Positions 5,279-28,008 of a stretch of DNA of 32,000 nt are shown here, piece by piece. The translations under genes and the position numbers were made by a program. The notes below the pieces were generated by a model, which was not told the origin of the DNA, made no database searches, and worked only from the letters and a program-made list of their open reading frames with translations. Every line of letters begins with the position of its first letter. The stretch's first letter is position 1. Origin of the DNA: Candidatus Jordarchaeales archaeon (GTDB lineage: Archaea; Asgardarchaeota; Jordiarchaeia; Jordiarchaeales; Freyrarchaeaceae); NCBI GenBank assembly GCA_038889235.1, contig JAWAHN010000001.1, positions 1,078,803 to 1,110,802 on the forward strand, read 5' to 3'.

Positions 5279-5385
5279 TGGTGGGCGGGCCAGGATTCGA
5301 ACCTGGGACCTCCGCCGTGTGAGGGCGGCTTCTCGCCCCTAAGTGAACCTTTCAGAGGGCGTCATAACCGCTAGACTACCCGCCC
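5279..5385 (-). tRNA. tRNA-Val(CAC) with a 31-nt non-canonical intron (best fit 25/26, 5330-5360); CCA encoded
   Basis: Minus strand: acceptor GGGCGGG/CCCGCCC-ACCA, anticodon arm CCGCC-CTCACAC-GGCGG, T arm CCAGG-TTCGAAT-CCTGG. Removing 31 nt gives a 76-nt tRNA. Confidence 0.93.
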
Positions 5386-9518: not shown

Positions 9519-9611
9519 GGGCCCCTAGCTCAGCCTGGTAGAGCTTAGAGCGCTAAAAGCACCCGGTTTGCACCCGGGAGGCCGCGGGTTCAAATCCCGC
9601 GGGGTCCACCA
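9519..9611 (+). tRNA. tRNA-Ala(TGC) with a 16-nt intron at 22/23 (9542-9557); CCA encoded
   Basis: Acceptor GGGCCCC/GGGGTCC with the G3:U70 Ala identity pair, anticodon arm CCCGG-TTTGCAC-CCGGG, T arm GCGGG-TTCAAAT-CCCGC. The intron interrupts the D stem. Confidence 0.94.
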
Positions 9612-26662: not shown

Positions 26663-26840
26663 TGGGGGAACACCTCCCCGCAAACGCCTACCATGGCTTT
26701 TTTTATTAACGACGCTTGCTCAAGTTACCGTTTATCTTTACAGCAGCCGAATACGAGCCGTTTGAACACTCAACCCCCTTCTATATAAATTTTCTAGCCA
26801 GCAATAGTTTGCTTGAACCTCAAGGGGGTAACAGTCAAAA

Positions 26841-26857
26841 GGGAAAAGCTTTATATT
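26841..26857 (+). promoter_or_regulatory. BRE/TATA promoter of the permuted 5S rRNA precursor
   Basis: GGGAAAAGC-TTTATATT ending 24 nt before the 5' arm at 26881. Confidence 0.75.
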
Positions 26858-26880
26858 CGCTTTTTTGGTTGATAATTCCT

Positions 26881-27038
26881 GCTGGGCGCCACGGCGTGAA
26901 AGTCAAGCCCGCATGCGATTCGGCGAGTACTGCTGTGCGGGAGCCAGCGGGAAAGCCGAATGCTGGCGCTACGGCGCCGGCCATAGCATGCGGGGATATA
27001 CCCGTTCCCATTCCGAACACGGATCCGTGGCGTCCAGC
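26881..27038 (+). rRNA. rrf: Circularly permuted 5S rRNA gene: 5' arm 26881-26900, 5S 3' half 26901-26969, UACG linker 26970-26973, 5S 5' half 26974-27023, 3' arm 27024-27038
   Basis: GCCATAGC...ACCCGTTCCCATTCCGAACACGGA (5' half) lies downstream of AGTCAAGCCC...GAGTACTG...GGGAAAGCCGAA (3' half). Helices I-V can all be formed. Confidence 0.95.
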
Positions 27039-27043
27039 ATGTG

Positions 27044-27059
27044 CTTTTCTTCTTGTTTT
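27044..27059 (+). terminator. Oligo-T terminator after the 5S precursor
   Basis: CTTTTCTTCTTGTTTT immediately after the 3' arm. Confidence 0.6.
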
Positions 27060-27126
27060 CCAAGGTAACTTTAATACAGGGTACCTATCCTTCTTTTTCT
27101 GTGAAGTGTTCGTTGGGGTTGTATAT

Positions 27127-28008
27127 ATGACAAAGCCCAGGCTTTACATAGATGAGAGCAGTCCTCCTATATCCGATAACCTCTACGAAAAGATAGCCGC
27201 GCACAGGAAGCTTTACAGGAAGCTTGTTTTCTCCGGCAAGGCTGTTAAGCGTCTTAGGGGGATTTTGCCCTCTTCAGAATTGGTGAGGATGCTCAGGGGG
27301 GGCGGGGGGAAGCTTAGGCGCTTCGATATAATGATCGAGTTGTATTGTGACGTTGAGACTGAAAGTAGAGTTAAGTCTCTGTACGACGAAGTGTGTAGCA
27401 CGTACCCGCCTCAAAAGTCGTCTATTAGTCTTGCGTCAGAAGGCGAGGAGCCTGCCCCCCTGAGGCTCGGGTTGAGCTGGGAAGACGTCTCGTTCGATGC
27501 TTGGGCACTTATAGAGCGTTTTTACAGCGTCATAGAGGAACCATTCTACGTTAACTTCGAATTCGAAGACGACGAGAAGGTGGTGTCCGCCGTAAATCTC
27601 TCAGTTCCCTTCGATGAGGAAAGGAGGCAGTTCTACCTCGTGGAGCTTGTCACCCCGTTCAGGGTGAAGTATCCTAGTGGGGAAGAAAGGTTACTGGGCA
27701 AGCTTTCGTCGCTTGTGGAGGAGGTAACGAGCAACCCAAATGTGACCCCCGAGCTTTTTGTGATCGGTCGAGGCGGCATGTGGAAGCCGCTGATAACCGT
27801 CGGCTGGTCTTTTAACGATGGCCGCTTACTCGTGAAGGTTCCAGAGTGGAATGGTAAGGGTGGAATAGAGTTCATCTTGGACCCCATTAACGGCAAGGTT
27901 CAACTGATCAAGGGAGATCTTAAGGTTGAAAAGGACGGTAAGCTGGGGAACGTGTCGCTCGATGCCGTTCAGTTTTTCGAGCTGGGGGGAGATGAGCTCT
28001 CAAGTTAG
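27127..28008 (+). CDS. Hypothetical protein (293 aa)
   Basis: ATG 27127 (MTKPRLYIDE) opens a long ORF with protein-like composition. The upstream part of the ORF-track call overlaps the 5S gene and is not considered coding. Confidence 0.7.
   Translation: MTKPRLYIDESSPPISDNLYEKIAAHRKLYRKLVFSGKAVKRLRGILPSSELVRMLRGGGGKLRRFDIMIELYCDVETESRVKSLYDEVCSTYPPQKSSISLASEGEEPAPLRLGLSWEDVSFDAWALIERFYSVIEEPFYVNFEFEDDEKVVSAVNLSVPFDEERRQFYLVELVTPFRVKYPSGEERLLGKLSSLVEEVTSNPNVTPELFVIGRGGMWKPLITVGWSFNDGRLLVKVPEWNGKGGIEFILDPINGKVQLIKGDLKVEKDGKLGNVSLDAVQFFELGGDELSS

What the first reader, a model, noticed from the sequence alone, without database searches (positions are those of the whole stretch)
26962..26981. 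Natural 5' and 3' ends fused by a C(UACG)G tetraloop: the mature 5S may be a permanent circle
Seen: helix I (GCUGGCGC 26962-26969 / GCGCCGGC 26974-26981, 8 bp) is closed by UACG with a C-G closing pair. Known: cUNCGg is an exceptionally stable tetraloop. No BHB motif or spacer is visible here that would reopen the ends. Inference: the ribosomal 5S is covalently closed with no free ends, possibly for thermostability or exonuclease resistance, analogous to circular SRP RNA in Thermoproteus.
Basis: partly seen in the sequence, partly recalled or inferred. Interest (0 to 1): 0.82.

Follow-up and report, generated by a model that had tools for sequence, protein, structure and literature searches.

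The report
Tetraloop-capped permuted 5S rRNA, probably circular
This Asgard archaeon's only 5S ribosomal RNA gene is written back-to-front, its normal ends sealed by a very stable four-base loop and its new ends flanked by a tRNA-intron-type cut-and-join signal, so the ribosome probably carries a ring-shaped 5S RNA, though no RNA data could be examined.

Summary
GCUGGCGC (26962-26969) pairs with GCGCCGGC (26974-26981) around UACG, closed by C26969-G26974. The hairpin folds at -16.6 kcal/mol (z -4.2).

It is helix I of a circularly permuted 5S gene, the only 5S in a 95%-complete Asgard genome of the Jordarchaeia order. The new ends lie in a canonical bulge-helix-bulge (BHB) motif. Cutting and joining gives a 123-nt ring whose junction (CGGA|AGUC) restores the 5S consensus. 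RtcB and two EndA paralogues are encoded.

In 47 permuted 5S genes from 20 Asgard families, helix I is always a closed hairpin with a 3-5-nt loop. The loop is UNCG in 26 of 47. None has a spacer or a second BHB at the cap. About 83 of 151 Asgard genomes carry the permuted gene and 48 a canonical one.

So there is no visible way to reopen the natural ends, and a permanent circle is the best reading (about 0.55). The thermostability rationale is weak, because low-GC lineages share the layout.

I found no publication describing it. This scan has noted permuted Asgard 5S genes before, in about 60 other genomes.

The parts
26843..26856 (+). Putative archaeal promoter: purine-rich BRE-like GAAAAGC (26843-26849) and TATA box TTTATAT (26850-26856), about 25-30 nt upstream of the processing stem
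   Evidence: Read directly. The same TTTATAT box lies at the same distance upstream of permuted 5S genes in most relatives and upstream of canonical Asgard 5S genes. Promoter activity is inferred.
26880..26894 (+). 5' strand of the outer (leader-trailer) helix of the BHB; pairs with 27025-27039 (15 bp)
   Evidence: In alignment A1, 10 of the 13 modelled pairs show compensatory changes.
26895..26898 (+). 5' strand (CGUG) of the 4-bp central BHB helix; pairs with CACG 27018-27021
   Evidence: Read directly. 95.3% of cells are paired in A1. The script applying the BHB rule finds 4/4 pairs.
26899..26901 (+). 5' three-base bulge AAA; predicted cleavage between A26900 and A26901
   Evidence: BHB geometry. 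The cleavage position follows the established rule that the cut falls between the 2nd and 3rd bulge base (own knowledge). Not tested biochemically.
26901..27023 (+). Predicted excised and ligated 123-nt 5S rRNA (a circle once A27023 is joined to A26901)
   Evidence: The junction CACGGA|AGUCAAGC reproduces the Rfam 5S consensus CggAAguUAAGc. The circular MFE is the 5S three-way junction. CM R1 scores it at 181.5 bits.
26901..26961 (+). 3' part of the 5S: helix III outer 3' strand (26902-03), helix II 3' strand (26908-16), helix V (26918-24/26955-61), loop E (26925-29/26951-54), helix IV with GGGA loop (26930-50)
   Evidence: Partial RF00001 alignment at 21.5 bits; folds; covariation in helices II, IV and V.
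26962..26969 (+). Helix I, 3' strand of the canonical 5S (GCUGGCGC)
26970..26973 (+). UACG tetraloop capping helix I where a canonical 5S has its free 3' and 5' ends
   Evidence: The cap is UNCG in 26 of 47 Asgard permuted 5S genes.
26974..26981 (+). Helix I, 5' strand of the canonical 5S (GCGCCGGC)
26982..27023 (+). 5' part of the 5S: loop A (CAUA), helix II 5' strand (26986-94), loop B, helix III and loop C (26998-27022), last base A27023
   Evidence: RF00001 partial hit on model positions 27-51, 19.3 bits; covariation.
27022..27024 (+). 3' three-base bulge GAU; predicted cleavage between A27023 and U27024
   Evidence: BHB geometry. Inferred cleavage.
27025..27039 (+). 3' strand of the outer BHB helix
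27045..27063 (+). T-rich stretch (CTTTTCTTCTTGTTTTC), the likely archaeal terminator of the short precursor
   Evidence: Read directly. T-runs follow the gene in most relatives. Inferred.

Best explanation
The hairpin at 26962-26981 is helix I of the genome's only 5S rRNA. The gene is circularly permuted, so the natural 3' and 5' ends are joined in the DNA by a C(UACG)G tetraloop.

A short precursor (about 26880-27050) is made from its own TATA promoter. Its leader and trailer form a canonical bulge-helix-bulge motif. The splicing endonuclease cuts after A26900 and after A27023, and RtcB joins A27023 to A26901. This rebuilds the conserved two-adenine bulge of helix III and yields a 123-nt covalently closed ring.

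The cap is a minimal, very stable loop with no spacer, bulge or second BHB. The ring has no spare bases beyond a normal 5S plus four. Nothing visible can reopen it, so the ring itself is most likely the 5S in the 50S subunit.

Shown: the permuted order, the capped helix I, BHB geometry with covariation, an exact consensus-restoring junction, and the enzymes encoded. Inferred: cleavage, ligation, persistence of the circle, and incorporation into ribosomes.
For: 1. The hairpin is exact and stable: -16.6 kcal/mol, z -4.2.

2. No canonical 5S exists in the own genome (95% complete). Only this locus scores, sub-threshold, with RF00001. CM R1 finds it once.

3. The precursor structure is 90.7% paired, 27-28 pairs show compensatory changes, and 0 of 500 shuffles reach it. 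The outer helix covaries at 10 of 13 pairs and helix I at 4 of 8.

4. The BHB is strict: 15-bp outer helix, 3-nt bulge, 4-bp CGUG/CACG helix, 3-nt bulge. About 35 of 47 relatives also give a strict BHB. The cut is either GGA|AGUY or GGAA|GYU, and in almost all of these the joined product restores the consensus two-A bulge (CNGRAAGYYAAR); two f14 genes read GAU|AGUU instead.

5. RtcB (599.9 bits) and two EndA catalytic-domain genes are encoded.

6. The cap is a closed hairpin of 7-13 bp with a 3-5-nt loop in 47 of 47 genes from 20 families. It is UNCG in 26 and YNCG in 32. By chance UNCG would be about 1.6% of tetraloops. No spacer occurs anywhere.

7. Several families lengthen helix I by 3-5 bp under the cap. 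This fits a solvent-exposed closed stem rather than defined termini.

8. E. coli ribosomes work with a 5S whose native ends are joined by a tetraloop, and those ends lie far from 23S rRNA (PMC7283268).

9. Precedents exist. Thermoproteus makes a mature circular SRP RNA from a permuted, BHB-flanked gene (PMC4731332). Circular 23S rRNA is reported within archaeal ribosomes (PMC12918454).
Against: A nick at the two-A bulge of helix III could be tolerated structurally, because both new ends are held by helix III pairs. Ligation is therefore not strictly required by the fold.

Circular pre-16S and pre-23S RNAs and permuted pre-tRNA circles are normally re-opened, so circles in archaea are often intermediates. 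Unknown nucleases exist, for example the one that excises H98 from Pyrococcus 23S (PMC7758197).

The ideal C-G closing pair is not conserved, and some families use triloops or non-UNCG loops. Selection may act on hairpin closure or precursor folding rather than on a permanent ring.

A later check recorded by this scan on another genome priced 'the closed ring is the ribosome's 5S' at 35/100.
Confidence: 0.55

Rival explanations
1. Cut but not joined. The endonuclease removes leader and trailer, but the ends are not ligated (or only partly). The ribosomal 5S is then a linear, permuted molecule with the capped helix I and with termini (5'-OH, 2',3'-cyclic phosphate) at the two-A bulge of helix III.
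For: After cleavage both new ends are held in place by helix III pairs (26902-03 with 26998-99; 27019-22 with 27002-05). The linear 123-mer folds into the same three-way junction (-61.9 kcal/mol). Linear permuted 5S rRNAs exist in brown-algal mitochondria (PMC4267664). Engineered cp5S with new ends in loops C or D works in E. coli.
Against: RtcB is encoded. By established knowledge, archaeal BHB products, including excised introns and pre-rRNAs, are ligated and found as circles (PMC3326292; PMC4731332). The cleavage register differs between lineages (GGA|A versus GGAA|G), yet in nearly every lineage the sum gives the consensus with no extra dangling base. That fits selection on a joined product, though it is only weakly discriminating.
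Confidence: 0.2
2. The circle is only an intermediate. After ligation an unidentified nuclease opens or trims the helix I cap, or another site, to give a conventional linear 5S, as RNase P and tRNase Z do for permuted tRNAs or as H98 excision does for Pyrococcus 23S.
For: Circular intermediates that are re-linearised are the rule for archaeal 16S rRNA and permuted tRNAs. Some families carry a longer helix I extension that could in principle be removed.
Against: The ring has no spare sequence: 123 nt is a normal 5S plus 4. The cap is a 3-5-nt loop in 47 of 47 genes, with no spacer, bulge or BHB. It is enriched for UNCG, a compact loop that is a poor nuclease substrate (own knowledge). 5S has no known need for free ends.
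Confidence: 0.13
3. There is no splicing-type processing. The leader-trailer helix is a conventional processing or assembly stem that is trimmed by other nucleases or retained, and the resemblance to a BHB is coincidental.
For: Leader-trailer helices flank rRNAs in all prokaryotic phyla (PMC11404451). The inner helix h' of the BHB is weak here (G.A, U-A, C-G).
Against: The 3-4-3 geometry is kept while the outer-helix sequence turns over completely. The central helix must borrow the 3' strand of helix III, so the 5S fold cannot form until leader and trailer are removed. Canonical Asgard 5S genes have no such stem.
Confidence: 0.07
4. It is a chance hairpin, or a decayed or rearranged 5S pseudogene without function.
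For: RF00001 does not reach its gathering score.
Against: It is the only 5S candidate in the genome. It is conserved full-length with covariation in about 83 of 151 Asgard genomes, and these are complementary to the 48 with a canonical gene. It has its own conserved TATA box.
Confidence: 0.02

Closest known systems
Permuted, circular SRP RNA of Thermoproteus tenax / T. uzoniensis (Plagens et al. 2015, PMC4731332)
   Same: An essential structured ncRNA gene with swapped halves. The new ends lie in a BHB cut by the tRNA splicing endonuclease, and ligation restores a functionally important element. The mature RNA is a circle. The host genome is rich in fragmented or intron-bearing tRNA genes.
   Different: The molecule differs (SRP RNA, not a ribosomal RNA). 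That case is confined to a few species of one genus, whereas this one spans about 20 families of a phylum. There the circle was shown by RNA-seq, Northern blots and binding assays. Here nothing is shown at the RNA level.
Circularly permuted tRNA genes (Cyanidioschyzon merolae, Soma et al. 2007; archaeal Thermofilum, from own knowledge)
   Same: The 3' half is encoded before the 5' half, the ends carry a BHB, and processing goes through a circular RNA.
   Different: The tRNA circle is an intermediate. An intervening sequence joins the natural ends and is removed by RNase P and tRNase Z to free the acceptor end. Here the natural ends are joined by a 4-nt UNCG loop with no spacer.
Circular 23S rRNA in archaeal ribosomes and permuted 23S of Pyrococcus/Thermococcus (PMC12918454; PMC7758197; bioRxiv 10.64898/2026.03.23.713588)
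   Same: BHB-dependent circularisation of a large-subunit rRNA, which then stays joined at the natural ends inside ribosomes.
   Different: Those genes are colinear, not permuted. PMC12918454 names 16S and 23S, but not 5S, as the rRNAs whose processing goes through a circle. In Thermococcales the circle is re-opened by excision of H98.
Engineered cp5S rRNA in E. coli (Huang et al. 2020, PMC7283268)
   Same: The native 5S ends are connected by a tetraloop and the molecule is opened elsewhere. The resulting ribosomes are active.
   Different: It is artificial, inserted into 23S rRNA, and opened at loop C or D rather than at the helix III bulge. It is not a free circle.
Permuted mitochondrial 5S rRNA of brown algae (Valach et al. 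2014, PMC4267664)
   Same: Helix I is replaced by or closed as a hairpin, and the termini are moved.
   Different: It is organellar. The product is linear with ends at the alpha/gamma junction, and there is no BHB or ligation.
Minor circular 5S species in Sulfolobus and Halobacterium (Danan et al. 2012, PMC3326292)
   Same: A 5S-sized (123-nt) circle with the native ends joined, enriched by RNase R.
   Different: It comes from a canonical gene and is low in abundance. It was not validated by RT-PCR and was interpreted as a possible intermediate or degradation step.

Membership tests
5S rRNA (Rfam RF00001) | Scores at or above the gathering threshold (38 bits) as a colinear sequence | tested here: not met
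   Two partial hits, 21.5 and 19.3 bits. None elsewhere in the genome. This is expected for a permuted gene.
5S rRNA (Rfam RF00001) | Three-way junction with helices I-V, loop A, loop C (CCCAUUCCGAAC), loop E and the two-A bulge, once the order is restored | tested here: met
   All helices are present and covary. The circular MFE is the 5S fold. The rotated sequence aligns to canonical Asgard 5S across the junction, positions 27-115. Loop C and the AAGUCAAGC block match the Rfam consensus.
cUNCGg extra-stable tetraloop | Loop sequence UNCG with a C-G closing pair | tested here: met
   C26969(UACG)G26974; -16.6 kcal/mol. The exceptional stability of UACG/UUCG loops is established knowledge and was not measured here.
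cUNCGg extra-stable tetraloop | Conserved in relatives | tested here: inconclusive
   UNCG in 26 of 47 and YNCG in 32 of 47, covering 11-12 of 20 families. The closing pair varies (C-G, G-C, A-U, U-G) and other families use triloops, GUAA and others. Closure by a hairpin is universal; the UNCG motif is only predominant.
Archaeal bulge-helix-bulge (hBHBh') splicing motif | Two 3-nt bulges on opposite strands separated by a 4-bp helix | tested here: met
   Bulges at 26899-26901 and 27022-27024, with central CGUG/CACG. Conserved in about 35 of 47 relatives under a strict rule.
Archaeal bulge-helix-bulge (hBHBh') splicing motif | Flanking helices on both sides | tested here: inconclusive
   The outer helix is 15 bp and covaries. 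The inner helix is weak (G.A, U-A, C-G by direct reading), a relaxed form of the kind accepted by heteromeric endonucleases (own knowledge).
Archaeal bulge-helix-bulge (hBHBh') splicing motif | Cleaved by the splicing endonuclease, with ends joined by RtcB | not testable with these tools
   The enzymes are encoded. No biochemical or RNA data.
Permuted ncRNA genes matured to a permanent circle (Thermoproteus SRP RNA type) | Permuted gene order with a BHB at the new ends, and a junction that restores a conserved element | tested here: met
Permuted ncRNA genes matured to a permanent circle (Thermoproteus SRP RNA type) | Junction-spanning reads and a circular mature species | not testable with these tools
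Junction patterns were absent from metagenome contigs, which are presumably DNA assemblies.
Permuted genes with a transient circle (permuted tRNA type) | An intervening sequence or processing signal between the natural 3' and 5' ends that allows re-opening | tested here: not met
   Only a 4-nt loop on a perfect 8-bp stem here. Loops of 3-5 nt in 47 of 47 relatives.

The most novel reading that the evidence does not exclude
Most Asgard archaea, the closest archaeal relatives of eukaryotes, build their ribosomes with a covalently closed, end-less 5S rRNA. It is made from a permuted gene by the tRNA-splicing machinery. It would be the first obligately circular 5S rRNA and the first permuted 5S gene in any cellular (non-organellar) genome. 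This would also explain why standard annotation finds no 5S gene in these genomes.
Probability: 0.5. Interest if true: 0.9.

Novelty: new variant of a known kind. Interest (0 to 1): 0.8.

Why it matters
5S rRNA is universal and has been regarded as a free linear molecule in every cell. PMC12918454 names 16S and 23S, but not 5S, as the archaeal rRNAs processed through a circle.

A permuted, BHB-flanked, tetraloop-capped 5S in about 55% of the sampled Asgard genomes would have three consequences:
- It would extend the tRNA-splicing machinery to making an essential rRNA.
- It would give a natural counterpart to engineered cp5S ribosomes.
- It would explain 'missing' 5S genes in Asgard genomes, since RF00001 fails on them, and provide a covariance model to annotate them.

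It also makes the question directly testable of whether free 5S ends matter for assembly or turnover. Several Asgard lineages are now cultured, so RNase R treatment, Northern blots and cryo-EM are feasible.

Tried and rejected
The decisive check could not be run.

2. Ligated-junction search in public contigs. Two metagenome-contig scans found nothing. One used a pattern requiring the cap followed by the joined junction, specific for this genus. The other was degenerate for UNCG-capped Asgard 5S. This is uninformative because the collection is presumably DNA assemblies.

3. The genome contigs pattern scan for permuted order was too loose. Nearly all of its 120 hits were chance matches in bacteria. 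Its only use was to name two relatives by exact coordinates. JAHAWU010000050.1, Ca. Jordarchaeia archaeon QZM_A3, is G008. JBHLKN010000001.1, Ca. Hodarchaeota archaeon DZ1B.339, is G012.

4. Tandem-duplication intermediate. G110 showed overlapping R1 and RF00001 hits, but inspection showed ordinary permuted genes at contig ends, and the 38.4-bit RF00001 hit is spurious.

5. RNase W / FAU-1 phyletic pattern as a proxy for 5S end processing. Dropped after reading that its in vivo role is in 16S maturation (PMC11602121).

6. A pre-existing BHB stem around canonical Asgard 5S genes, as a possible evolutionary route. Not seen: these genes are TATA, gene, T-run units.

7. Weak R1 hits of about 30 bits in families f12 and f16 were rejected as permuted genes, because they overlap canonical 5S loci.

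8. Literature. Six searches found no description of a permuted or obligately circular archaeal 5S gene. The library lacks most subscription journals, so absence is not proof.

Full report
OBSERVATION. GCUGGCGC (26962-26969) pairs with GCGCCGGC (26974-26981). There are seven Watson-Crick pairs and one wobble (U26964.G26979). The loop is UACG (26970-26973), closed by C26969-G26974. On its own the 20-mer folds at -16.6 kcal/mol and takes 97% of the ensemble. Dinucleotide shuffles average -7.5, z = -4.2, and 0 of 200 fold as well. The same hairpin appears in the MFE of the 181-nt region (z -5.85) and in the circular fold of the predicted product.

WHAT THE LOCUS IS. Rfam finds no 5S above threshold in the window. 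Two partial RF00001 hits lie here. One (21.5 bits) covers the AAGUCAAGC, helix II 3' strand, helix V, loop E and helix IV part at 26900-26961. The other (19.3 bits) covers helix III and loop C at 27000-27024. The 3' part of a 5S is therefore encoded before the 5' part.
- The whole assembly (G000: 2.14 Mb, 8 contigs, 95% complete) has no other RF00001 candidate.
- The locus lies in a 443-bp intergenic gap between a minus-strand ORF ending at 26683 and a gene whose plausible start is the ATG at 27127.
- A TTTATAT box at 26850-26856 and a T-rich run after 27045 bracket it.

THE NEW ENDS. By direct reading:
- 26880-26894 pairs with 27025-27039 (15 bp).
- CGUG (26895-98) then pairs with CACG (27018-21).
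- The three-base bulges are AAA (26899-26901) and GAU (27022-24).

This is a canonical bulge-helix-bulge (BHB) motif. By the established rule the cut falls between the second and third bulge base (own knowledge). That releases 26901-27023, which is 123 nt. Joining A27023 to A26901 gives CACGGA|AGUCAAGC, which is the 5S consensus CggAAguUAAGc. The genome encodes RtcB (599.9 bits). It also encodes two splicing-endonuclease catalytic-domain proteins of 205 and 195 aa.

COMPARATIVE EVIDENCE.
- Who the relatives are. BLAST against 40 relatives found colinear matches spanning the cap in five families. Exact coordinate identity with named GenBank contigs shows that one same-order relative is Ca. Jordarchaeia archaeon QZM_A3. 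A same-phylum relative is a Ca. Hodarchaeota archaeon. The phylum is therefore Asgardarchaeota.
- Covariation. On an 11-sequence alignment (A1) the hand-drawn precursor structure is 90.7% paired. It has 27-28 pairs with compensatory changes, and 0 of 500 shuffles or slid controls come close. The outer helix covaries at 10 of 13 pairs, helix I at 4 of 8, helix II at 5 of 9 and helix IV at 5 of 8.
- Phylum scan. A covariance model of this alignment (R1) was run on 151 Asgard genomes. It gave matches of at least 44 bits, nearly all full-length, in about 83 of them, from 19-20 families. RF00001 exceeded its cut-off in 49, chiefly families f7 (26/26) and f12 (17/19). The two sets are complementary. 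The roughly 30-bit R1 hits in f12 and f16 overlap canonical genes, and one RF00001 hit (G110) is a spurious overlap with a permuted gene.
- Canonical genes. Canonical Asgard 5S genes are plain TATA, gene, T-run units without a processing stem.

In 47 permuted genes aligned to R1 (A2), helix I is always a closed hairpin of 7-13 bp with a 3-5-nt loop.
- The loop is UUCG in 17, UACG in 5, UGCG in 4, CUCG in 4 and CACG in 2.
- That makes UNCG 26 of 47 and YNCG 32 of 47, in 11-12 of 20 families.
- The rest are triloops, GUAA, GUUA and similar.
- Families f8, f17, f18, f19 and f22 extend helix I by 3-5 bp beneath the loop.
- No gene has an unpaired spacer, a bulge pair or a second BHB at the cap.
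- The closing pair is not fixed (C-G, G-C, A-U or U-G).

THE JUNCTION IN RELATIVES. A script applying the strict BHB rule finds the motif in about 35 of 47 sequences. The misses are truncated hits or relaxed motifs. Two registers occur: GGA|AGUY (central helix CGUG/CACG) and GGAA|GYU (central CCGG/ACGG and the like). In almost all of them the joined product restores the same consensus with the two-A bulge. Two f14 genes give GAU|AGUU instead.

MECHANISM AND ODDS.
- Permuted gene with capped helix I: about 0.97.
- Endonuclease cleavage at the BHB: about 0.9. The central helix sequesters the 3' strand of helix III, so the 5S fold cannot form until leader and trailer go.
- Ligation: about 0.75-0.8. 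RtcB is present. Archaeal BHB products are found as circles (PMC3326292; PMC4731332).
- Persistence of the ring as the ribosomal 5S: 0.55 overall.

For persistence:
- The ring has no spare sequence.
- The cap is a compact loop enriched for UNCG.
- Helix I length drifts freely.
- E. coli ribosomes tolerate a tetraloop-joined helix I whose tip is far from 23S (PMC7283268).
- A circular SRP RNA and circular 23S rRNA are precedents.

Against persistence:
- No RNA data are available.
- A nick at a bulge is structurally tolerable.
- Circles are commonly intermediates in archaeal rRNA and permuted-tRNA maturation.
- A later check in this scan priced the same bold claim at 35/100 on another genome.

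Permuted genes also occur where the 5S has 38-43% GC. Here the 5S has 63% GC against 50% for the window. Exonuclease resistance, or simply neutral fixation of a rearrangement that the splicing machinery rescues, remain possible.

KNOWN OR NEW. Six full-text searches found no description of a permuted or obligately circular 5S gene in archaea. PMC12918454 (2026) names 16S and 23S, but not 5S, as the archaeal rRNAs whose processing goes through circularisation. The nearest precedents are listed under Closest known systems. The mechanism (BHB cleavage plus RtcB ligation on a permuted gene) is known, but the substrate and its phylum-wide spread appear new. I therefore class it as a new variant of a known kind. 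This scan has already noted permuted Asgard 5S genes about 69 times in about 60 other genomes. None of the notes I saw carried RNA evidence.

Two junction scans of metagenome contigs were empty and uninformative. Related genomes are not independent, so the counts describe spread and are not statistics.

Noticed in passing
window 5282-5338 (-) and 9519-9611 (+): Both tRNA hits are atypical. The cmscan match at 5282-5338 lacks the 15 model positions of the D arm. tRNA-Leu(TAA) is called as 93 nt, while cmscan aligns only model positions 9-63.
   Followed up: no
L187:31-210 and L185:24-198 (family f9 genomes G037, G017): These permuted 5S genes carry an extra insertion of about 30-35 nt inside loop C / helix III, giving a predicted product of about 150 nt. 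It may be an intron or an expansion segment. An earlier scan note (e1-3769462) calls a Loki-type 5S 'intron-bearing'.
   Followed up: partly
151 Asgard genomes: Permuted and canonical 5S genes are complementary across families. Permuted: f1-f6, f8, f9, f13-f15, f17-f22, f25, f27. Canonical: f7 26/26, f12 17/19, f16, f10, f23, f26. No sampled genome convincingly has both. RF00001-based annotation misses the permuted ones.
   Followed up: partly
G110 contigs C77, C90, C106, C132 (L180, L205-L207); G034 and G076 (closed chromosomes): G110 has at least four identical permuted 5S copies, each at a contig end, so they act as repeat-induced assembly breaks. Two closed genomes of family f5 each carry two permuted copies at distant sites.
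   Followed up: partly
window 26716-28008 (+): The mechanical 430-aa ORF runs straight through the 5S gene from a TTG start. The in-frame ATG at 27127, just after the T-rich terminator, is the plausible real start. Gene callers could mis-extend this protein over the rRNA.
   Followed up: no
L193-L204 (canonical Asgard 5S loci): Canonical Asgard 5S genes have a TTTATAT box about 25 nt upstream of the mature 5' end and a T-run directly after the 3' end. They seem to need almost no processing, in contrast to the BHB-dependent permuted genes.
   Followed up: partly
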